A DNA stretch of 45,956 bases from IMG/VR virus record IMGVR_UViG_3300043443_000309; one strand, 5' to 3'. Shown here one piece after another: positions 15,454-40,540 of the stretch. The DNA comes from an uncultured virus (IMG/VR IMGVR_UViG_3300043443_000309) (Duplodnaviria > Heunggongvirae > Uroviricota > Caudoviricetes). Both the position numbers and the translations under genes were made by a program. The notes beneath the pieces are model-generated. The model did not search any database, was not told the DNA's origin, and saw only the letters and a list, made by a program, of their open reading frames with translations. Position 1 is the stretch's first letter. Every line of letters begins with the position of its first letter.

Positions 15454-15840
15454 TTGCATACGTTGTCTGTTTTGTTTGGGATGATGCTTGGGTACCTAGT
15501 GTATCATGGCCTAAGCTTCTTTCTAAACATTGGTGATGCTTCGAAATGGTTCAAGCGTAACGAAGCTGCCATTTTGAAGATTCTCATCGTTTGTGTTGAA
15601 TCTGCCTCGTTCATTCAGGCGGCAAAGCTAAAACAGATGAAGCTCATTGGATTCGATGAAGCAACTATCAAGCTTACTGCTACTATTGATAAGCAGAACT
15701 TTGATACTTGGAAATCGACTGTAACCGATACACTAAATCAATACTATAAGGAAAGCGGGAGAAAACCACACTATGACTTTAGCAAACTACTTGCACATGC
15801 AGAAGAAATCTGGAGGAAGCATGAAAAAGAAAATCAATGA
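15454..15840 (+). CDS. hypothetical membrane-anchored protein
   Basis: Hydrophobic N-terminus; GGAG RBS. Confidence 0.6.
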   Translation: MHTLSVLFGMMLGYLVYHGLSFFLNIGDASKWFKRNEAAILKILIVCVESASFIQAAKLKQMKLIGFDEATIKLTATIDKQNFDTWKSTVTDTLNQYYKESGRKPHYDFSKLLAHAEEIWRKHEKENQ

Positions 15841-16525
15841 GGAAGAAGGTCAACCAATGTCAGAGGACGACCTACAAGAGTTGTTGGTTACGGCCAATGA
15901 ATCTGCGTTGCTGAAGGAAACGCTCAAAGAACTTGGTAACATCTTCTTTATGGGCGAAGTCAATGAAGAGACAGCAAATGGTCTGATCTCCAGCATGATT
16001 ACTTTCAAAGAACTAACAGAGAAGATGAAAGAGGCTGTTGAAGAGACTGCCGAAGAAACAGCAGAAGCCGAAGAGGGAGCCGAAGAAGAGAAGGCAGAAC
16101 CTGAAGAGCCAAACCCAATCAAGGTATACATTTCTACACAAGGCGGCAACGCTGACGACATGTTTGCCATTTATGATGTTATGGAAATGGTCAAGAGGTC
16201 AGTGCCAATTCAAACTATCGGGCTGGGCAAGGTAATGTCAGCCGGTGTTCTTCTTCTAGCAGCAGGCACCAAAGGAAAGCGTAAGATTGGTCGTCACGCA
16301 AGGGTCATGATCCATAACGTCATTACCGGCCACTCAGGCGGTCTTTTCCATGTTGCAAACGAACTTGGCGAAGCAGAACACATTCAACAGATGTACATTA
16401 GTGCTATTGCAGAGAATTCTAACCTAACTGTCAAACAGCTTAGGAAGATGGTCAAGACAGGACAGAATGTGTATCTTTCAGCGCAAGAAGCCATCAAGTA
16501 TGGCATTGCAGATGAACTAATCTAA
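15821..16525 (+). CDS. clpP: ClpP-like protease
   Basis: YISTQGG, GKVMSAG, MIH, YLSAQEAIKYGIAD; acidic insertion. Confidence 0.9.
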   Translation: MKKKINEEEGQPMSEDDLQELLVTANESALLKETLKELGNIFFMGEVNEETANGLISSMITFKELTEKMKEAVEETAEETAEAEEGAEEEKAEPEEPNPIKVYISTQGGNADDMFAIYDVMEMVKRSVPIQTIGLGKVMSAGVLLLAAGTKGKRKIGRHARVMIHNVITGHSGGLFHVANELGEAEHIQQMYISAIAENSNLTVKQLRKMVKTGQNVYLSAQEAIKYGIADELI

Positions 16526-18204: not shown

Positions 18205-19782
18205 ATGATGACTAAGCATTACAGTTCCAATTTCCAACTACAGCAGAAGATACTATCGGGCGTTGATTTACTAGCAGACTATGTTTCTTCAACGCTCGGT
18301 CCCCGTGGCCGAAATGTTATTCTAAAGAACGCAGAAGGCAATCCGATTATCACCAAAGATGGTGTGTCGGTTGCTGAGTTCATTTCGCTGGAAGATCCAT
18401 TTGAAGATGCGGCTGTGCAGATTATCAAGCAAGCTAGCCGTAAGACGAACTCCGAAGCAGGTGACGGTACAACAACTGCTACCGTACTGTCGCGTGCCAT
18501 TCTAACAGAAGCTTTCCGGCACATTACCGCTGGTGCTTCTCCTGTCGAAGTGAAACGTGGTATCGACCATGCCGTCGAACTAATCGTTGCACGACTGAGA
18601 GAGGTTGCAAGCCCTATCCGTTCTGAAAAGGACGTAACTCACATTGCTACCATTTCGGCTAACAATGATGATGTTATTGGACGTTTGGTTGCAAAGGCTA
18701 TCACTTCTGCCGGTAAGGACGGATCTCTAATTGTTGAAGAAGCACGTTCAACAGAAACGACACTTGACCTTATCGAAGGGTTCAGATTCGATTCGGGTTA
18801 CGCAGCGGGAGCATTTGTCAACGACGAACGTAGGAATGCAGTTGTATACGAAGATTGTTTCGTCCTCGTAGTCGATGATAAGATAGATAAGGTCCAAGAC
18901 CTCCTCCCAGTTCTAGAGCCAGTTGCTCGCGAAGGACGCCCACTTGTTGTGGTTGCCTCAGAGATTGAAGGACAAGCATTGGCCGCTCTTATCATGAATG
19001 CTATGAGAGGCACAATGAAGGTAGCGGCTGTCAAAGCCCCAAGGTATGGACAGGAACGTCGCGACATTCTACAGGACTTGTGCATCGCATCCGGCGCTAA
19101 GTTTTTTTCCAAAGCATCGAACACCGCGCTATCGACATTTCAGTTGGTTGATCTTGGACAATGCAAGAAGGTTGAAATCCTCAAGAACGGCACCACGATT
19201 ATTGGCGCAAAGGGTGATTGGAACCAAGTCGAAGCTCGCATTGAAAGCCTCAAAGCAGAGTTGGAGCAAACAGACAACATTCACGAAGGCGAACAAATCC
19301 AAGAGCGAATTGTGCGCTTGGCTTCCGGTGTTGCTGTTATCAAGGTTGGAGCAGCTACCGAAGTTGAAATGATCGAGAAGAAGCATCGTATTGAAGATGC
19401 CGTTGAAGCCGTGAAGGCCGCAAGAATGGAAGGTATTGTTCCCGGCGGCGGCACGGCACTTCTAAAGATTGTGTCAAGCCTACCAGCCCCCTCTCTTGAC
19501 GGCGATAAGCTATTGGGTTATAATTCTGTTGTAAAGGCGTGCTACGCTCCGATTAGACAAATGGCAAGCAATTCCGGTCTATCTTCCGACATTATTATCG
19601 AGCGTGTTTCTAACACAACCGAAGTAAACCAAGGTTGGAACTTTGTTTCAAACGAGATAGAAGACTTGGTTGTTGCAGGGGTTGTTGATCCTGCCAAGGT
19701 TACACGTTGTGCTTTGCAGAATGCTGCTTCTGCTGCCGGTACTCTAATCACCAGCGGTCATGCCGTTGTGGAGAGGACATGA
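18205..19782 (+). CDS. groEL: chaperonin GroEL
   Basis: TLGPRGRNV, ITKDGVSVA, AGDGTTTATV, GIVPGGG, VVDPAKV; no GGM tail. Confidence 0.97.
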   Translation: MMTKHYSSNFQLQQKILSGVDLLADYVSSTLGPRGRNVILKNAEGNPIITKDGVSVAEFISLEDPFEDAAVQIIKQASRKTNSEAGDGTTTATVLSRAILTEAFRHITAGASPVEVKRGIDHAVELIVARLREVASPIRSEKDVTHIATISANNDDVIGRLVAKAITSAGKDGSLIVEEARSTETTLDLIEGFRFDSGYAAGAFVNDERRNAVVYEDCFVLVVDDKIDKVQDLLPVLEPVAREGRPLVVVASEIEGQALAALIMNAMRGTMKVAAVKAPRYGQERRDILQDLCIASGAKFFSKASNTALSTFQLVDLGQCKKVEILKNGTTIIGAKGDWNQVEARIESLKAELEQTDNIHEGEQIQERIVRLASGVAVIKVGAATEVEMIEKKHRIEDAVEAVKAARMEGIVPGGGTALLKIVSSLPAPSLDGDKLLGYNSVVKACYAPIRQMASNSGLSSDIIIERVSNTTEVNQGWNFVSNEIEDLVVAGVVDPAKVTRCALQNAASAAGTLITSGHAVVERT

Positions 19783-27342: not shown

Positions 27343-27371
27343 TTGACGCCCATTCACGGACAGGCTATACT
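27343..27371 (+). promoter_or_regulatory. early promoter
   Basis: TTGACG-N17-TATACT. Confidence 0.7.
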
Positions 27372-27390
27372 GTATGGGAATGGTGATGAT

Positions 27391-27894
27391 GTGGAACTGA
27401 CGAACTACAAAACGCTAAAGCTTGATGCTAGCTGGCAACCGTTGGACATTATTCCTGCGTTTGACGCACTGATTATGTCTATGGACGATAAGTGTATGAT
27501 TGTTGAGACTTGGGATCGTAAGATCCGTTCTCAATACAAGTCATTTGATCTTCCATCTGTTATCGTGTTGAAGAACTATCGTGCTTCAAAGGCACATAAG
27601 ACTAAATGCACAAAACAAAACATCATTGTCCGCGATAATAACACTTGTCAATACTGTGGTCGTTCTGATTGTAAAATGACAATTGACCATGTTATTCCAC
27701 GCTCCAAAGGTGGCAAGTTTTCATGGGAGAACCTTGTAACTGCTTGTCCCTCTTGTAATCAAAAGAAGGGAGATAGAAGCTTACAAGACGTAAACATGAG
27801 ACTTCTTAGCATTCCTAACGAACCAAAATACCAATTGTTCAAGAGAAGAGTGCTAAATCCCGGTGAAGAGTGGCAACAATACATGGGGGCATAG
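27391..27894 (+). CDS. HNH endonuclease (McrA/HNH_5-like)
   Basis: RDNNTCQYCG, TIDHVIPRSKGG, WENLVTAC..CNQKK. Confidence 0.9.
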   Translation: MELTNYKTLKLDASWQPLDIIPAFDALIMSMDDKCMIVETWDRKIRSQYKSFDLPSVIVLKNYRASKAHKTKCTKQNIIVRDNNTCQYCGRSDCKMTIDHVIPRSKGGKFSWENLVTACPSCNQKKGDRSLQDVNMRLLSIPNEPKYQLFKRRVLNPGEEWQQYMGA

Positions 27895-28433
27895 TGTCTA
27901 GTAATCGAAACGAAACTCGTATTGAGCGTTATACTAAGAAGCTTGGGAATGCAAAGACTTTCCCTATTTCAGTAGCAACAGTCAACTTCATGTTTGATGA
28001 AAACCTTGGCTTTGTTGTTCGTTCTGCTGCTTGTTTCGGAGCAGAAGCGGTCCATGTTATCGGTTCTACTCCAAACAAAGCAGTACTGAAAAGCAAGAGT
28101 GGATCAACTGACCACTTTGTCACCATCATTCAGCATCAAACACCATCCGATTTCTTGGAATGGTGTCGGAACAACAATGTATCTGTTGTTTCGGCTGAAC
28201 TAAACGATAGTGCTGTTGAGCTAACAGACTATCATCCAACCTTTGACAAGCATGTTTGTATTGTTGTTGGGCACGAGGAAACCGGCGTTCCTGCTGAGAT
28301 TTCTGCCCATTCTGACAACGTATACATTGAGATGCCCGGTGTCGGCTTTTGTTTGAATACTTCTCAAACAGCCAACATCATGCTCCACAATCTCACACAG
28401 AAGTATCGTGCAACGAATTTTCTTCATGCTTGA
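27894..28433 (+). CDS. SpoU/TrmH-family RNA methyltransferase
   Basis: ENLGFVVRSAACFG, VVGHEETGV, IEMPG..CLN. Confidence 0.88.
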   Translation: MSSNRNETRIERYTKKLGNAKTFPISVATVNFMFDENLGFVVRSAACFGAEAVHVIGSTPNKAVLKSKSGSTDHFVTIIQHQTPSDFLEWCRNNNVSVVSAELNDSAVELTDYHPTFDKHVCIVVGHEETGVPAEISAHSDNVYIEMPGVGFCLNTSQTANIMLHNLTQKYRATNFLHA

Positions 28434-29064: not shown

Positions 29065-29098
29065 GGGAGAATGTCCCGAGCGGCAAAGGGGGCGTGCT
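29065..29098 (+). pseudogene. 5' half of a tRNA-Tyr-like gene
   Basis: GGGAGAATGTCCCGAGCGGCAAAGGGGGCGTGCT: acceptor 5' strand and Tyr-type D arm, ending at the anticodon loop. Confidence 0.75.
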
Positions 29099-29844
29099 TA
29101 TTCCCTAGTTTGGTGTCTGAGAATGTGTTTTCTAACAGCACTGTCTGAGACACCAAGCTTTTTGCCAACAGAAACATAAGATGAATCTTGTACCATTTGC
29201 TGTAATTCTTCAAGTGTGGGCCATTCGATCTTGGGTTTGGAGTAGACATAAGAACTACAAGAGCGACATCTTTTTGATCTACGCTCAACAGCAATACCGC
29301 AATCAGTACAAGTTGAGTTATTGATTTTTCTAGGTACTTTCTGCTTCTTTTCTTTATTTCTTTCGTTTGGTAGATGCTCGCAATAACGTCCACGATTCTT
29401 GCCGGAGTAGGTTTCGGTTTGGCTGTGACAATTGGGACATAAGAACCGAAGGTTTTCAAGTCTGTTATCAGTTCTGATACCATTGATGTGGTCTAGATGT
29501 AGAGAGATTTTTTGATTATTCCACTCTGAAATGTGGCACTTAGAACATTCATAGGACAATAACCCAGCTTCTAACATCCTTTTCTTCATTCTGCCGACGT
29601 TCGTATAGCTTGAATTTTCAATTAGAATTTCTTCAAGAGAGTAGATGGGGTTGTTCTTGTTCTCTCTAGTTTTCGGACTGAAGTGATTTGTTTCTACATC
29701 AAGAGCGGATACTTTCCTATGAAAAGTTGTGTAGTTGCCATTAGTAGGTTTCAATCCTAATCTAATTAGAGCCTCGCGAATAGACGAACTATTTGCGACT
29801 GCCTCTCTAAATTCAGTGTCTTCATAACGGCATTTGTCGAACAT
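29098..29844 (-). CDS. HNH endonuclease with C-terminal HTH-like domain
   Basis: LHLDHINGIRTDNRLENLRFLCPNCHSQT; VGKKLGVSDSAVRK. Confidence 0.92.
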   Translation of the reverse strand: MFDKCRYEDTEFREAVANSSSIREALIRLGLKPTNGNYTTFHRKVSALDVETNHFSPKTRENKNNPIYSLEEILIENSSYTNVGRMKKRMLEAGLLSYECSKCHISEWNNQKISLHLDHINGIRTDNRLENLRFLCPNCHSQTETYSGKNRGRYCEHLPNERNKEKKQKVPRKINNSTCTDCGIAVERRSKRCRSCSSYVYSKPKIEWPTLEELQQMVQDSSYVSVGKKLGVSDSAVRKHILRHQTRE

Positions 29845-32678: not shown

Positions 32679-32732
32679 CTTGACAGCGACCCTCGACCAC
32701 GCTATAATGAAAGCACAACGAACGAGGAATAA

Positions 32733-33029
32733 GTGTCTGACCCTGAAATCAGAGTTAGCTCAAAAGGCACAAAAGAGTGGCGGCTGAATGGACTGCTTCA
32801 TCGAGAGGACGGCCCTGCTATTGAATGGGCTGACGGATCAAAAGAATGGCGTTTGAATGGTAAATTTCACAGGACTGACGGCCCTGCTATTGAGTGGATT
32901 AGTACTGCTGGTGTCACAAAAAAGTGGTATTTGAATGGCACAAAGGTTTCTTGGCAAGAAGTTCTCAAACAAGCAGAGACAGAAGAAATCGAGTTGAGAA
33001 TTCTCATCGCCGCCTTGACGACCGCTTGA
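32733..33029 (+). CDS. HREDGPA-repeat protein (2 repeats)
   Basis: W.LNG.LHREDGPA.E units; C-terminal IELRIL. Confidence 0.8.
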   Translation: MSDPEIRVSSKGTKEWRLNGLLHREDGPAIEWADGSKEWRLNGKFHRTDGPAIEWISTAGVTKKWYLNGTKVSWQEVLKQAETEEIELRILIAALTTA

Positions 33030-33192
33030 CAAGAAAACGATTGACTGTCCGCCACCACCGCGTTATAATAACAACAACAAAAGAGGGAACCATGAACGAG
33101 TACGATGATCTTTACTTTGAGCCAGTCATGTACGGGTTTGATCCCGACTATGATCCGGTTCCTGACGATCTAGACAATCTTTGACAAATAAA

Positions 33193-33379
33193 GGCGAGTA
33201 AGCATCATTTTATAATGCGTTCAAAGTCTGCACGAACGCCACGATCTAGTCCTATTATCTAGGATCCCGAAAGGGAAGTTGACGCTTTGACTAGGGAGGC
33301 AAGCCCTAAAGAGAGCTACCGCTTACATTCGTGAGAATGGCCGGGTCTTTTATCTAGTTATGCTGACCCGGCCTCGCCA
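33193..33379 (+). ncRNA. unidentified structured ncRNA
   Basis: Intergenic; terminal helix GGCGAG/CTCGCC encloses several helices including two GNRA-capped hairpins. Confidence 0.65.
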
Positions 33380-33408
33380 CCCCCTTCTAACACAACAAAG
33401 GAAATAAC

Positions 33409-33561
33409 ATGAACGACACTATCGAATTTGGAAGCTTCAACGAAGAACAAGTAAGTTCTCTGATCGAGCAGCTTGATCTCGTCGCGGCACAAACTGGTCG
33501 AGAATTGAAGTTTGAGCACATTTCTATTTGGCTTATGATGTGTAAGCCAGCCGTCGCGTAA
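33409..33561 (+). CDS. small hypothetical protein (50 aa)
   Basis: AAGGA RBS, MNDTIEFG.. Confidence 0.5.
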   Translation: MNDTIEFGSFNEEQVSSLIEQLDLVAAQTGRELKFEHISIWLMMCKPAVA

Positions 33562-33607
33562 AGAAGATGTAAACCGATTTGACGAACACCAACCAACAGG
33601 ATACATT

Positions 33608-33796
33608 ATGACTACCAACAAGGAGAAGCGTATGCACATCGGATCTAAGGTTATTGCTAAGGGTAATCCTCGTAATGCAGGTATTATCATCGAACGTCCT
33701 GCAATTCACGGATTTTGGACCGTTCGCTGGTGGCGCGGTGAGAACCGAGGAGAAATCCGCATTTGTTCTGAGGAAAAGCTGGAACTCATTGCATGA
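33608..33796 (+). CDS. small hypothetical protein
   Basis: Downstream of TTGACG-N17-TACATT (33579-33607); real start may be the internal ATG after AGGAG. Confidence 0.55.
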   Translation: MTTNKEKRMHIGSKVIAKGNPRNAGIIIERPAIHGFWTVRWWRGENRGEIRICSEEKLELIA

Positions 33797-34622: not shown

Positions 34623-34715
34623 GTGTCGTTGACGAAATCTTGACTTGACGCCGACCGTCAGCCGTGGTACATTATGAACAGTCGAGGGCAGAGACTATAA
34701 ACCTGCCCGCACCTT

Positions 34716-34788
34716 GGTCCCATAGTTTATGTGGTGAGAACATAGCCCTTTCAAGGCTAGGAGTCGAGTTCAAGTCTCGATGGGACTA
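34716..34788 (+). tRNA. tRNA-Glu(TTC)
   Basis: Cloverleaf, TAGCC-CTTTCAA-GGCTA. Confidence 0.92.
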
Positions 34789-35480
34789 CTTTTCTTTTTA
34801 CTATGAACTCTAATGTGCTTTCTAATAGCATTATCAGAGACACCTAACTTCCTACCTACGGCTACATAAGAAGTTTCTCCTACCATCCTAGTAAGTTCTT
34901 CTACCGAAGGCCATTCGATCCTCGGCGCGCCAGTTATAGGAAGATTACAGGCAACACAACGAGTTGAGCCTCTTGTTATTTCAACACCGCAGTCAACACA
35001 GTTATAGATTTTCTTTTTCTTTTTGACGTTTCTACCAGCATAAGTTTCTGTCTGACTATGGCAGTTGGGACACAGTAGACGCAAGTTTTCTATTCTATTG
35101 TCATTGCTGACCCCATTAATGTGATCTAAATGTAAACTTAAACCTGCTCCATTCCACTCGCTAATGCCACACTTTGAACAACAATAGTCAAGTAAGCCTT
35201 CCTTTGTAAGTCGCTTTTTTAGCTTGTCAGAGCTTCTATAGGTCGAATCTTGAACTAGAATTTCTTCAAGCTCTCGTTTATTGAACTTTGTGTAAGCACG
35301 CCTAACGATAGAAACGCCGAAATGGCTTATGTCCAATTTTAGCGCCTTAACTCTTGAGTGGAAAACAGTGTAAGAAGCCCCGCTAGCGGCTAAATCTAAT
35401 TTTCGTAAACAGTCTCTTATACTGTTGCTGGTTTTTACAACCTCAACGAACTCTTGTTCAGTAAACGACTTTGATTTCAT
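34770..35480 (-). CDS. HNH endonuclease with C-terminal HTH-like domain
   Basis: LHLDHINGVSNDNRIENLRLLCPNCHSQT; start MKSKS after ACTACTTA/GGGAG. Confidence 0.92.
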   Translation of the reverse strand: MKSKSFTEQEFVEVVKTSNSIRDCLRKLDLAASGASYTVFHSRVKALKLDISHFGVSIVRRAYTKFNKRELEEILVQDSTYRSSDKLKKRLTKEGLLDYCCSKCGISEWNGAGLSLHLDHINGVSNDNRIENLRLLCPNCHSQTETYAGRNVKKKKKIYNCVDCGVEITRGSTRCVACNLPITGAPRIEWPSVEELTRMVGETSYVAVGRKLGVSDNAIRKHIRVHSKKKSSPIET

Positions 35481-35605
35481 TCGAACTCTCCCTTTGTTAC
35501 ATAGTAAGTAGTTCGGGGTTCGACAAAAAGCTTCGGTTGACAGAAAATTCACTTGACGACCGCTGACCGATGCGTTATAATAACAACACAACAACAGGAA
35601 GGAAT

Positions 35606-36148: not shown

Positions 36149-36670
36149 ATGAACCTACATAAATATACGCTAGAAGAGTTGACAGAAGCCATTAGTACTT
36201 CTAGGTCCATAAGACAAGTCCTGATAAAGTTAGGAGTTGTGCCTTACGGTGGGAACTATGATGTTTTTAGGAAAGCGGTAAAATATTACGATATAAGCAT
36301 AGAACACTTTGACGGACAAGGATGGAATACCGAAGACCACTCAGGAATTCTATCGAAACAATCCTATAAAAAAACTAGAAAGCTTGAAGATATTCTGAAC
36401 AAAAATACCACTTATCCAACTTCAAAGCTTCGAAAAAGATTAGTAAAAGCCGGACTAAAACAGGAACAGTGTCAGATGTGTGGTATTACACACTGGCTCA
36501 ATATACCGGTTTCTCTTGAACTAGACCATATAAATGGTGATAGATACGATAATAGAATTGAAAATCTACGATTATTATGCCCAAACTGTCATTCTACAAC
36601 AGAGACGTACAGAGGTAGGAATAAAAGTAGATATCTAAGCCCCGATGTTGGAATAGGTAGACAACGTTGA
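36149..36670 (+). CDS. HNH endonuclease
   Basis: LELDHINGDRYDNRIENLRLLCPNCHSTT; stop codon lies inside tRNA-Leu. Confidence 0.92.
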   Translation: MNLHKYTLEELTEAISTSRSIRQVLIKLGVVPYGGNYDVFRKAVKYYDISIEHFDGQGWNTEDHSGILSKQSYKKTRKLEDILNKNTTYPTSKLRKRLVKAGLKQEQCQMCGITHWLNIPVSLELDHINGDRYDNRIENLRLLCPNCHSTTETYRGRNKSRYLSPDVGIGRQR

Positions 36671-39408: not shown

Positions 39409-39412
39409 CTTT

Positions 39413-39484
39413 GTTCTCATAGTCTAACGGATAAGACCACTCTCTCCTAAAGAGTAGATACAGGTTCGATTCCTGTTGAGGACA
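39413..39484 (+). tRNA. tRNA-Arg(CCT)
   Basis: ACTCT-CTCCTAA-AGAGT. Confidence 0.92.
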
Positions 39485-39488
39485 TACT

Positions 39489-39565
39489 GGGGAAGTATAG
39501 GCTCTCGCTTATAACGAGTTGAAACCTTAATCGGTCACATGCGGGTTCGATTCCCGCCTTCCCCA
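39489..39565 (+). tRNA. atypical tRNA-Ile(TAT)-like RNA lacking a normal D arm
   Basis: Perfect acceptor GGGGAAG/CTTCCCC-A, perfect T arm, CTCG-CTTATAA-CGAG anticodon arm. Confidence 0.7.
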
Positions 39566-39570
39566 CTCAT

Positions 39571-39985: not shown

Positions 39986-40540
39986 ATGTCTAAAAGTTCG
40001 GAAAGAGTAAAGAAGTGGAGAAAGAATACTAAAAATAGATTGATCCAAGCAATGGGTGGAAAATGCGGTATTTGTGGCTATGATAGAAGCAATTCTGCAT
40101 TGGAATTCCACCACATCGATCCTTTACAAAAGTCATTTACTTTAGGATCTGCTAGAGGTTCAATAGTAAACTGGGGATTGCTAGTAGAAGAAGCAAAGAA
40201 ATGTGTTTTACTCTGCTCCAATTGTCATAGAGAGGTACACGAAGGGATTGCACAACTTCCTTCCGAAATTCCAGCCTTCTTAGAAGAGTATGAGAATTAC
40301 AAAGAGATTAGAAGAGAGATAACTTTGACTGATAATACGGATAACTGCCCCGTCTGTAATAGACAAAAACACATAACTAACAACACTTGCTCGCCTGAGT
40401 GTCGAGCGATAGCGAATAGAAAAGTTATCAATCGGCCAAGTAGAGAGCAACTACTTGAACTTATAGAGATTAGTAGTTATGTTCAAGTGGGCAAGTTATT
40501 TGGTGTATCTGACAATACCATAAGAAAATGGGTAAAATAG
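39986..40540 (+). CDS. HNH endonuclease with C-terminal HTH-like domain
   Basis: GGKCGICGY..ALEFHH..KCVLLCSNCHREVH; VGKLFGVSDNTIRKW. Confidence 0.9.
   Translation: MSKSSERVKKWRKNTKNRLIQAMGGKCGICGYDRSNSALEFHHIDPLQKSFTLGSARGSIVNWGLLVEEAKKCVLLCSNCHREVHEGIAQLPSEIPAFLEEYENYKEIRREITLTDNTDNCPVCNRQKHITNNTCSPECRAIANRKVINRPSREQLLELIEISSYVQVGKLFGVSDNTIRKWVK

What the first reader, a model, noticed from the sequence alone, without database searches (positions are those of the whole stretch)
33193..33381. Unassigned ~190-nt multi-helix RNA
Seen: GGCGAG(33193)/CTCGCC(33378) closes the molecule and is followed by ACC. Inside, TAAGC/GCTTA encloses GCGTTC/GAACGC, TCCTA/TAGGA, TCCC-GAAA-GGGA and TAGGG/CCCTA. 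After it come CATTC-GTGA-GAATG and GCCGGGTC/GACCCGGC. Loop CAAAG (33222) can pair with CTTTG (33285), a possible pseudoknot. No ORF covers it on the coding strand. The outer four-way junction is vaguely tRNA/tmRNA-like but lacks a T loop and a G3:U70 pair. I cannot match it to a family I know.
Basis: seen in the sequence. Interest (0 to 1): 0.75.

Follow-up and report, generated by a model that had tools for sequence, protein, structure and literature searches.

The report
New folded RNA in phage tRNA region
The flagged stretch encodes a real, evolutionarily maintained, roughly 190-base folded RNA of an uncultured freshwater phage that fits no catalogued RNA family, and its job is still unknown.

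Summary
The + strand folds better than all 200 shuffles (z -3.6). Rfam 15 and ARAGORN find nothing in it.

I found only three distinct versions, and they come from two lineages:
- the window type
- the version in a 147-kb IMG/VR phage contig
- the version in an 8.9-kb contig

They are 69-84% identical and sit in the same gene neighbourhood. 97.7% of pair cells stay paired. 10 of 48 pairs changed on both sides, against 0-1 in slid controls. Six of those ten lie in the well-aligned helices P1, P2, H1, P3 and P4. G-U pairs without A-C mismatches point to the + strand.

The fold has three parts:
- A linker-free four-way junction (P1-P4), with P3 always GNRA-capped.
- A five-way junction beyond P2 (hairpins H1-H4).
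- Probably a 4-bp pseudoknot between the H1 loop and the H4 internal loop.

It is not a tRNA, tmRNA, Y RNA or retron RNA, and it is not related to T4 rnaC/rnaD.

Best guess (about 0.4): a stable trans-acting RNA cut from an early polycistronic transcript. Main rival: a cis-regulatory leader of the next small gene. Function was not shown.

The parts
33193..33198 (+). P1 5' strand (GGCGAG), the closing helix
   Evidence: Pairs with 33373-33378. Pair 5 reads A-U in the window, G-C in L084 and G-U in L087 (the model-fitted alignment reads G-C in both relatives).
33199..33203 (+). P2 5' strand (TAAGC)
   Evidence: Pairs with 33321-33325. The innermost pair is C-G in the window and G-C in both relatives.
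33204..33216 (+). 13-nt A/U-rich joining strand of the inner five-way junction
   Evidence: Same length but variable sequence in the three versions.
33217..33239 (+). H1 hairpin: 6-bp stem and an 11-nt conserved loop
   Evidence: Stem pair 2 is C-G in the window and U-A in the relatives. The loop differs at only 2-3 of 11 positions.
33225..33228 (+). Candidate pseudoknot, 5' half (AGTC in the H1 loop)
   Evidence: Pairs with GACT 33289-33292. The relatives have AGCC with GGCU, a U-A to C-G change on both sides, and 100% of cells are paired. It rests on one event only.
33240..33249 (+). Joining strand that starts with the invariant CCACG
   Evidence: CCACG is invariant in the three versions.
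33250..33264 (+). H2 hairpin (TCCTA/TAGGA), variable in length
   Evidence: A hairpin is present at this place in all three versions, but with different sequence and length (15-25 nt). The alignment here is uncertain.
33266..33275 (+). H3 hairpin CCC-GAAA-GGG
   Evidence: The relatives allow two readings. One is a 2-3-bp GNRA-capped hairpin at the aligned place. The other is a 5-bp hairpin, GGTCA..TGACC, just downstream. This is unresolved.
33276..33283 (+). Joining strand holding the conserved AGTTGAC
   Evidence: AGTTGACGC is identical in all three versions.
33284..33316 (+). H4 two-step hairpin (GCTTT/AGAGC and TAGGG/CCCTA) with a 7-nt loop AGGCAAG; the most conserved part
   Evidence: Nearly invariant in the three versions. 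The 5' side of its internal loop carries the pseudoknot partner.
33317..33320 (+). Joining strand TACC
   Evidence: Invariant.
33321..33325 (+). P2 3' strand (GCTTA)
   Evidence: See the P2 5' strand.
33326..33339 (+). P3 hairpin: 5 bp capped by a GNRA tetraloop
   Evidence: The loop is GTGA in the window and GAAA in both relatives. One pair changed on both sides (A-U to U-A) and two changed on one side to G-U.
33340..33372 (+). P4 hairpin: 8-9 bp with a 17-nt pyrimidine-rich variable loop
   Evidence: Two pairs changed on both sides. The stem is one pair longer and the loop is 13-14 nt in the relatives.
33373..33378 (+). P1 3' strand (CTCGCC)
   Evidence: See the P1 5' strand.
33379..33390 (+). 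Conserved C-rich single-stranded tail (ACCCCC, then pyrimidines)
   Evidence: GCCACCCC is conserved in all three versions. The tail is predicted to pair weakly (3-4 bp) with the next gene's ribosome-binding site in the window and L084.
33092..33184 (+). Upstream 30-aa acidic ORF; its stop codon lies 8 nt before P1
   Evidence: Conserved as a 31-aa ORF directly before the RNA in L084, and readable the same way in L087.
33409..33561 (+). Downstream 50-aa ORF with its own ribosome-binding site, 27 nt after the ACC
   Evidence: A 53-aa counterpart follows at the same spacing in L084 and L087. It has no Pfam or PHROG family.
33041..33069 (+). Sigma-70-type promoter-like site (TTGACT, 17 nt, TATAAT; 11 of 12) that could drive the acidic ORF and the RNA
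   Evidence: Consensus scan. It is absent at this place in L084 and L087, where another gene abuts.

Best explanation
This is a genuine structured non-coding RNA of a new family, about 186-190 nt long. It is encoded on the + strand of an uncultured freshwater phage with a DnaE-type polymerase, in the phage's early-looking region of small genes and tRNA genes.

Shown:
- Four helices meet without linker bases: P1 (which closes the 5' and 3' ends), P2, the GNRA-capped P3, and P4.
- P2 opens into a five-way junction carrying hairpins H1-H4.
- The H1 loop, the joining strands (CCACG, AGTTGAC, TACC) and H4 are almost invariant.

Inferred:
- The H1 loop forms a 4-bp pseudoknot with the H4 internal loop.
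- The P3 tetraloop docks back on the P2 domain, giving a compact globular fold.

Inferred mechanism (about 0.4):
- The RNA is transcribed by the host polymerase as part of a polycistronic early message.
- It is trimmed to the end-paired P1 helix by the host enzymes that also mature the neighbouring phage tRNAs.
- It then acts in trans as a stable RNA, presenting its conserved core to a protein or host machine, as is assumed for T4 rnaC and rnaD.
- It is not a decoding tRNA mimic.
For: Fold:
- All reader helices verified.
- MFE z -3.62, 0 of 200 shuffles as good.

Not a known family:
- No Rfam match in the window or in the relatives.
- No tRNA or tmRNA call by ARAGORN.

Homologs:
- A covariance model built from the window sequence alone finds L087 at 107.9 bits and L084/L085 at 106.3 bits.
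- The three versions are 69%, 72% and 84% identical pairwise.

Covariation:
- 97.7% of 175 pair cells are standard pairs, against 90.5 +/- 1.6 in shuffles (0 of 500 reach it) and 35-56% in slid controls.
- 10 of 48 pairs changed on both sides, against 0-1 in slid controls.
- At least one such pair lies in each of P1, P2, H1, H2, H3, P3 and P4.
- RNAalifold on an independent MAFFT alignment recovers P1, P2, H1, H4, P3 and P4, with 5 pairs changed on both sides.

Strand: 1, 4 and 3 G-U pairs in the three versions and 0 A-C mismatches.

Pseudoknot: AGUC with GACU in the window becomes AGCC with GGCU in the relatives.

Copy number and context:
- One copy per record.
- The order acidic ORF, RNA, 50-53-aa ORF, 62-aa ORF is kept, with tRNA genes on both sides.

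For a trans role:
- The 5' and 3' ends are paired.
- No terminator-like site follows the element.
- The element lies among tRNA genes.
- The annotated T4 precedent of rnaC and rnaD lies beside tRNA-Arg.
Against: - No transcript ends are known. The only RNA data are assembled contigs of one metatranscriptome.
- In that run a 119-nt contig of the L084-type RNA has word depth 5.0. Neighbouring gene contigs have 2.7-4.2. So there is no sign of accumulation, and DNA carry-over is possible.
- The element always sits at a fixed 26-27 nt before the same small ORF, and its tail is conserved. That fits a cis role equally well.
- There are only three versions from two lineages. Each compensatory change is therefore about one event, and R-scape-type statistics would have no power.
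- The alignment used for counting (A6) was fitted to the model structure. H2 and H3 are poorly aligned in it.
- No partner protein was identified.
Confidence: 0.45

Rival explanations
1. It is a cis-acting leader (riboswitch-like or protein-operated) that controls the downstream 50-aa ORF and the genes after it. The junction core would bind a ligand or protein, and the state of P1 would set the availability of the C-rich tail, which can mask the ribosome-binding site.
For: - The element is always directly upstream of the same ORF at 26-27 nt, with a conserved tail GCCACCCC plus pyrimidines.
- Folding predicts that the G residues of the ribosome-binding site are mostly paired: unpaired probability 0.06-0.29 in the three versions. 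In the window and L084 the partner is the tail.
- A multi-junction fold with invariant junction strands and a pseudoknot is typical of aptamers (the comparison itself rests on general knowledge).
Against: - The tail to ribosome-binding-site helix is only 3-4 bp across an 11-12-nt loop, and it is not the predicted partner in L087.
- There is no terminator-like site.
- The regulated genes are tiny proteins without a family, so no ligand suggests itself.
- There is no match to any riboswitch model in Rfam 15.
Confidence: 0.27
2. It is a processing or stability element of the polycistronic message. P1 stacked on P4, followed by ACC, would imitate the acceptor and T arms of a tRNA precursor. Host tRNA-maturation nucleases would then cut between the two cistrons, or the structure would shield mRNA ends. 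The RNA would have no function of its own.
For: - The P4 3' strand runs directly into the P1 3' strand, as the T stem runs into the acceptor stem in a tRNA.
- ACC follows P1 in all three versions.
- The element lies in a region with 13 tRNA genes.
- Earlier notes of this scan describe tRNA-like punctuation in other phages. That is a lead, not evidence.
Against: - A 190-nt fold with an invariant five-way-junction core and pseudoknot is far more than a nuclease signal needs.
- P4 has 8-10 bp and no T loop.
- None of the window's 13 tRNA genes encodes CCA, so ACC is not this phage's tRNA-end habit.
Confidence: 0.12
3. It is a ribozyme, self-cleaving or otherwise catalytic, of an undescribed class.
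For: - The fold is compact: linker-free four-way junction, GNRA cap, pseudoknot and invariant junction nucleotides.
- It lies between two cistrons, where cleavage would separate them.
Against: - There is no match to any ribozyme model in Rfam 15.
- Nothing in the data shows cleavage.
- The metatranscriptome contig spans H3 to the tail without a break.
Confidence: 0.06
4. It is a strongly derived tRNA or tmRNA-type mimic that receives CCA and is charged or bound by tRNA-handling proteins.
For: - It has four arms in the tRNA order, and the P3 stem has 5 bp like an anticodon stem.
- P1 is followed by ACC.
Against: - The tRNA and tmRNA models and ARAGORN are silent.
- P3 has a 4-nt GNRA loop, so there is no anticodon.
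- There is no T loop, no linker bases and no G3:U70.
- No CCA-adding enzyme gene was found in the 147-kb relative.
Confidence: 0.05
5. It is a chance fold in a spacer, with no function.
For: Only three versions are known, and the reverse strand also folds well (z -3.37).
Against: - Pairing is kept at 97.7% across versions that are about 30% diverged, with 10 pairs changed on both sides.
- Loops and joining strands are more conserved than the neighbouring coding DNA, which is 71% identical over 841 bases including the element.
Confidence: 0.03

Closest known systems
Phage T4 small stable RNAs rnaC (species 1, 139 nt) and rnaD (species 2, 119 nt)
   Same: - Both are phage-encoded structured RNAs of unknown function lying in the tRNA-gene region on the same strand as the tRNAs (annotation).
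- rnaC also folds well, with its ends paired (z -4.57).
   Different: - There is no homology. The family model scores at most 4.6 bits (E 0.2) anywhere in the T4 region, and that best hit is not on rnaC or rnaD.
- rnaC carries a canonical-looking T arm next to its 3' end. This RNA does not.
- This RNA lies between protein genes rather than abutting a tRNA.
tRNA and the tRNA-like domain of tmRNA (Rfam RF00005, RF00023)
   Same: It has four arms in the same order, with the fourth arm running directly into the closing helix, and ACC after the closing helix.
   Different: - There are no linker nucleotides, no D loop and no T loop.
- The third arm has a GNRA tetraloop instead of an anticodon loop.
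- The second arm is a 120-nt domain.
- Position 3:70 is C-G.
- The models and ARAGORN give no match.
Bacterial Y RNA-like RNAs (YrlA, RF02553)
   Same: It is a stable-RNA-like design with paired ends and a tRNA-like module, a design also known from phages (recalled).
   Different: - There is no YrlA or Y_RNA match on the element.
- No Ro (TROVE) gene was found among the 75 ORFs of the window scanned or in the 147-kb relative.
Multi-junction riboswitch aptamers, for example the lysine riboswitch with its five-way junction (recalled)
   Same: It has a closing helix, a five-way junction with conserved joining strands, loop-to-loop tertiary pairing, and a position upstream of a gene.
   Different: - There is no Rfam match.
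- There is an extra outer four-way junction.
- There is no clear expression platform.
- The downstream genes are tiny proteins without a family.
ROOL and GOLLD large ornate RNAs (papers seen only in the search listing)
   Same: They are structured RNAs of unknown function, often found in phages near tRNA genes (recalled).
   Different: They are several times larger (recalled). The Rfam scans gave no match of any family on this element.

Membership tests
tRNA (RF00005) | Cloverleaf scored by the covariance model or by ARAGORN | tested here: not met
   There are 12 Rfam and 13 ARAGORN tRNAs in the window, none at 33193-33381. Nothing appears there even at E<=10.
tRNA (RF00005) | 7-nt anticodon loop, T loop, and linker bases 8, 9 and 26 | tested here: not met
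   P3 has a 4-nt loop, P4 has a 13-17-nt loop without the T-loop motif, and the helices abut without linkers.
tmRNA (RF00023) | tRNA-like domain with G3:U70 and a T loop, plus a tag reading frame | tested here: not met
   ARAGORN reports no tmRNA and Rfam gives no match on the element. Position 3:70 is C-G.
T4 rnaC / rnaD | Sequence and structure homology | tested here: not met
   Model R2 was run with filters off on the T4 region. The best score is 4.6 bits (E 0.2), and it lies outside both genes.
Y RNA / YrlA | Match to the family model, and a Ro (TROVE) gene in the genome | tested here: not met
   There is no model match on the element. TROVE is absent from the window ORFs scanned and from the 147-kb relative, which is estimated 81% complete.
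Retron msr-msd or DGR template RNA | Adjacent reverse transcriptase gene | tested here: not met
   No RVT_1 domain was found in the window ORFs or in the 147-kb relative.
Group I intron | Match to the intron model, and interruption of a gene | tested here: not met
   There is no Rfam match. The flanking ORFs each have their own stop codon, ribosome-binding site and start codon.
Any riboswitch or ribozyme class in Rfam 15 | Match to a family model | tested here: not met
   There are no matches on the element at E<=10 in the three versions.
Riboswitch (as a way of working) | Ligand-dependent change of an expression platform | not testable with these tools
   Only a weak 3-4-bp pairing between the tail and the ribosome-binding site is predicted.
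Stable processed small RNA (as a way of working) | Discrete transcript with defined 5' and 3' ends | tested here: inconclusive
   Only assembled contigs of one metatranscriptome were available. A 119-nt contig covers H3 to the tail of the L084-type RNA at a depth like its neighbours.

The most novel reading that the evidence does not exclude
The invariant five-way-junction core, locked by the pseudoknot between the H1 loop and H4 and held by the GNRA-capped four-way junction, is a binding pocket or active site. On this reading the element is the first member of a new riboswitch or ribozyme class, carried by a clade of large freshwater phages.
Probability: 0.25. Interest if true: 0.85.

Novelty: new variant of a known kind. 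Interest (0 to 1): 0.6.

Why it matters
Phage tRNA regions have been known since T4 to hold stable RNAs whose function has never been explained (recalled). This element is an unusually elaborate example: two stacked multi-helix junctions and a likely pseudoknot in about 190 nt. Its helices have comparative support and its conserved core is well defined.

The phage is found in many freshwater-type metagenomes. 19 runs hold half or more of the sampled words, from 16 studies in all; two runs of one study may be the source.

If the RNA is trans-acting, it points to an unknown way in which large phages handle host or phage RNA machinery. If it is cis-acting, it would be a new regulatory RNA class.

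In either case it gives a defined molecule, with designed compensatory mutants at hand, for experiments.

Tried and rejected
Searches for more homologs:
- blastn of the element and of the L084 version against 50,697 phage records: no match.
- tblastn of the neighbouring 62-aa protein's relative P0002 against the same records: no match.
- An 8-kb stretch around the element matches known phages only at tRNA genes.
- An exact 27-mer of the element is not in IMG/VR.
- Neighbour-protein routes in IMG/VR:
  - The repeat protein at 32733-33029 has 248 relatives. None of the 75 loci kept holds the RNA.
  - The 198-aa protein has no relative.
  - The cyclotransferase-like protein gave 5 distant loci without the RNA.
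- Pattern scans:
  - One search gave one hit that shares none of the other conserved motifs.
  - One search gave 7 loci. One is real and six have none of the other motifs.
  - Searches found the same two real contigs.
  -, in 185,579 species genomes, gave 5 hits with none of the other motifs.
- Model R2 over 93 held sources (515,627 bases) found only the window, plus hairpin-sized partial hits in loci that had been fetched with the H1 pattern.

Readings rejected:
- A promoter-like site inside the element (33181-33208) would start the transcript after the P1 and P2 5' strands. Those strands covary with their partners, so I rejected it as the RNA's start.
- A resemblance to two conserved RNase P RNA regions (AAAGTC in the H1 loop, ACCGCTTA near P2), recalled from memory, was rejected. 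The would-be long-range pairing does not covary, whereas P2 does, and no RNase P model matches.

Reads:
- Parts of the element had no cover in some runs.
- In run X17 two contigs end at 33200 and 33388.
- I draw nothing from this.

The 62-aa neighbour as a possible RNA-binding partner:
- The Atlas look-alikes score below 0.9.
- The AlphaFold model has mean pLDDT 60.5.
- No fold search was run and no claim is made.

Literature:
- A search for T4 species 1 RNA found no paper.
- A search on structured phage RNAs listed 58 papers.
- In PMC10690425 I read passages. The two IMG/VR sample numbers were not found in the supplementary files that could be searched, but three files were not searched. I therefore cannot exclude that the motif is listed there.

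Full report
**1. Observation**

- The unconstrained minimum-energy fold of 33193-33384 gives the same architecture at -66.1 kcal/mol.
- 200 dinucleotide-preserving shuffles average -51.2 (sd 4.1), so z is -3.62, and none folds as well.
- The reverse strand also folds well (z -3.37), as any helical region does.
- No + strand ORF of 25 aa or more overlaps the element. The only overlapping frame is on the minus strand (33358-33690), antisense to two conserved + strand genes.

**2. Setting**

The window is a piece of an uncultured phage.
- Pfam and PHROG scans find a DnaE-type polymerase, ThyX, UvdE, a GMP-reductase-like enzyme, ClpP, GroEL, NUDIX, a SpoU-type methylase and several HNH endonucleases.
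- There are 13 tRNA genes between 29958 and 40645 by ARAGORN and 12 by Rfam.
- Cultured phages are only distant relatives. The polymerase is about 30% identical and GroEL about 44%.
- Near-identical DNA is held by 19 runs with half or more of the sampled words. The 20 listed holders come from 16 studies, mostly freshwater or aquatic. Two runs of one study may be the source.
- The element lies 8 nt after the stop codon of a 30-aa acidic ORF (33092-33184).
- It ends 27 nt before the start of a 50-aa ORF (33409-33561) that has its own ribosome-binding site.
- Sigma-70-type promoter-like sites are frequent nearby: 32680 (12 of 12), 33041 (11 of 12), 33579 and 34645. This fits an early region read by the host polymerase, which is an inference.

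**3. Not a known family**

- Rfam 15 at gathering thresholds finds only tRNAs in the window.
- At E<=10, the 601 bases around the element give two snoRNA-type chance hits, both outside it.
- The same holds for the two relatives.
- ARAGORN finds no tmRNA.

**4. Homologs**

Direct DNA searches of cultured-phage records and several IMG/VR routes failed. Three routes then succeeded.
- Laying contigs of four runs on the region showed a diverged copy in a riverine metatranscriptome. It is a 119-nt contig with 9 differences over 33287-33345, and its ends do not fit the window.
- The neighbouring 62-aa protein has one diverged relative cluster (75% identity). An alignment-based scan of JGI metagenomes gave four loci: two of the window type (99% and 98% identical) and two identical copies of a type 71% identical over 841 bases.
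- Motif scans of IMG/VR added the same 147-kb contig and an 8.9-kb contig.

In all there are three distinct versions:
- window = L083 = L082 (L082 is cut at its 5' end)
- L084 = L085 = L086 = L103
- L087 = L102

Pairwise identity is 69%, 72% and 84%. So there are effectively two lineages.

There is one copy per record. Scans of species genomes and a model search of 0.5 Mb of other phage loci found no more.

**5. Structure and covariation**

A covariance model made from the window sequence alone finds the relatives at 106-108 bits. On the resulting alignment:
- 97.7% of 175 pair cells are standard pairs. Shuffles give 90.5 +/- 1.6 (0 of 500 reach the observed value). Slid controls give 35-56%.
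- 10 of 48 pairs changed on both sides, against 0-1 in slid controls.

The secure double changes are:

| Helix | Window | Relatives |
|---|---|---|
| P1, pair 5 | A-U | G-C (read as G-U in L087 by the alignment) |
| P2, innermost pair | C-G | G-C |
| H1, pair 2 | C-G | U-A |
| P3, pair 2 | A-U | U-A |
| P4, first of two | U-A | A-U |
| P4, second of two | C-G | U-A |

Other points:
- H4 is invariant, so it says nothing for or against its pairing.
- H2 and H3 are hairpins in every version but differ in length and sequence. Their four counted double changes depend on an uncertain alignment.
- For H3 there are two readings. One is a short GNRA-capped hairpin kept in all three. The other, in the relatives, is a stronger 5-bp hairpin just downstream.
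- RNAalifold on an independent MAFFT alignment recovers P1, P2, H1, H4, P3 and P4, with 5 pairs changed on both sides.
- G-U pairs number 1, 4 and 3 in the three versions, with no A-C mismatch. This assigns the RNA to the + strand, the strand of the genes and tRNAs.
- The P3 loop is always GNRA: GUGA in the window and GAAA in both relatives.

The caveat is that two lineages give about one event per pair, and the counting alignment was fitted to the model.

**6. Pseudoknot**

A scan for helices kept in all three versions found a different pairing. AGUC in the H1 loop (33225-33228) pairs with GACU on the 5' side of the H4 internal loop (33289-33292). The relatives have AGCC with GGCU, a change on both sides, and 100% of cells are paired.

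The same scan also produced one evidently spurious helix with a double change. I therefore call the pseudoknot probable, not shown.

**7. What it is not**

- T4 rnaC and rnaD are the annotated precedent for stable RNAs in a phage tRNA cluster. They are not related: the best score is 4.6 bits, outside both genes. rnaC carries a T-arm-like hairpin that this RNA lacks.
- No Ro (TROVE), reverse transcriptase or CCA-adding enzyme gene is found in the 147-kb relative, which is estimated 81% complete. Ro and reverse transcriptase are also absent from the window ORFs. This argues against Y-RNA, retron and DGR readings.
- None of the 13 tRNA genes of the window encodes CCA. The conserved ACC after P1 is therefore not simply this phage's tRNA habit.

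**8. How it most likely works**

Shown: a conserved multi-junction fold with paired ends, one copy per genome, and fixed neighbours.

Inferred: a compact tertiary fold, with P3's GNRA loop docking on the P2 domain and the H1 to H4 pseudoknot.

My best guess, at about 0.4, has three steps:
- the RNA is transcribed within an early polycistronic message;
- it is trimmed to the P1 helix;
- it acts in trans through its invariant core.

The main rival, at about 0.27, is a cis-acting leader.
- Spacing to the next ORF is fixed and the C-rich tail is conserved.
- Folding predicts the ribosome-binding site to be mostly paired. In two of the three versions the partner is the tail.
- That helix is only 3-4 bp, and there is no terminator-like site.

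Less likely readings are a pure processing or stability signal, a ribozyme, a chargeable tRNA mimic, and chance.

The one RNA data set gives assembled contigs only, at a depth like the neighbouring genes. It neither shows nor excludes a discrete stable species.

**9. Novelty**

The family is absent from Rfam 15.
- I found no description in two full-text searches.
- In the passages read of the IMG/VR structured-RNA survey PMC10690425 nothing matches it.
- Three of that paper's supplementary files could not be searched.
- Earlier notes of this scan describe several other unassigned folded RNAs in phage tRNA clusters. These are unchecked leads and none is similar in sequence.

The kind, a phage tRNA-region structured RNA of unknown job, is therefore known. 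This family and its double-junction fold are new.

Noticed in passing
window 39478-39566: ARAGORN calls an 89-nt tRNA-Ile (anticodon tat) that overlaps the 3' end of tRNA-Arg (39412-39485). Rfam's tRNA model reports nothing there, so the call may be false or an unusual tRNA.
   Followed up: no
window 27343-27894, 29098-29844(-), 34770-35594(-), 36149-36670, 39986-40540: Five HNH-type endonuclease genes are scattered through and beside the tRNA region. This looks like homing-endonuclease traffic around the tRNA genes.
   Followed up: no
window 27870-28433: A SpoU-family RNA 2'-O-methyltransferase gene lies just upstream of the tRNA cluster. It may modify the phage tRNAs or other RNAs.
   Followed up: no
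window 32733-33029: A 98-aa repeat protein (repeated DGPAIEW...WRLNGK units) has 248 relatives in IMG/VR, often several copies per contig. Contigs of runs X17 and X18 join 33004 back to 32664 with 8 extra letters, which suggests tandem paralogs or rearranged copies in other strains.
   Followed up: partly
L084 1140-1219: In the 147-kb relative a weak tmRNA-model match (28 bits; gathering score 47) sits right after two tRNA genes. It may be a tRNA-like element or a fragment.
   Followed up: no
window 32680-32708 and 33041-33069; also 33579-33607 and 34645-34673: Promoter-like sites that match or nearly match the sigma-70 consensus recur every few hundred bases among the small genes: 7 found, against 3.1 +/- 1.6 in shuffles. 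The site before the 62-aa ORF is conserved in both relatives.
   Followed up: partly
window 33608-33796: The co-conserved 62-aa protein is predicted to be a small, mostly beta-strand domain, but with low confidence (pLDDT 60.5). Its Atlas look-alikes are SH3- or KOW-like small barrels, all scoring below 0.9. It might bind RNA, but this was not tested.
   Followed up: partly
window 18205-19782 and 15773-16525: The phage encodes its own GroEL-type chaperonin and a ClpP-like protease.
   Followed up: no
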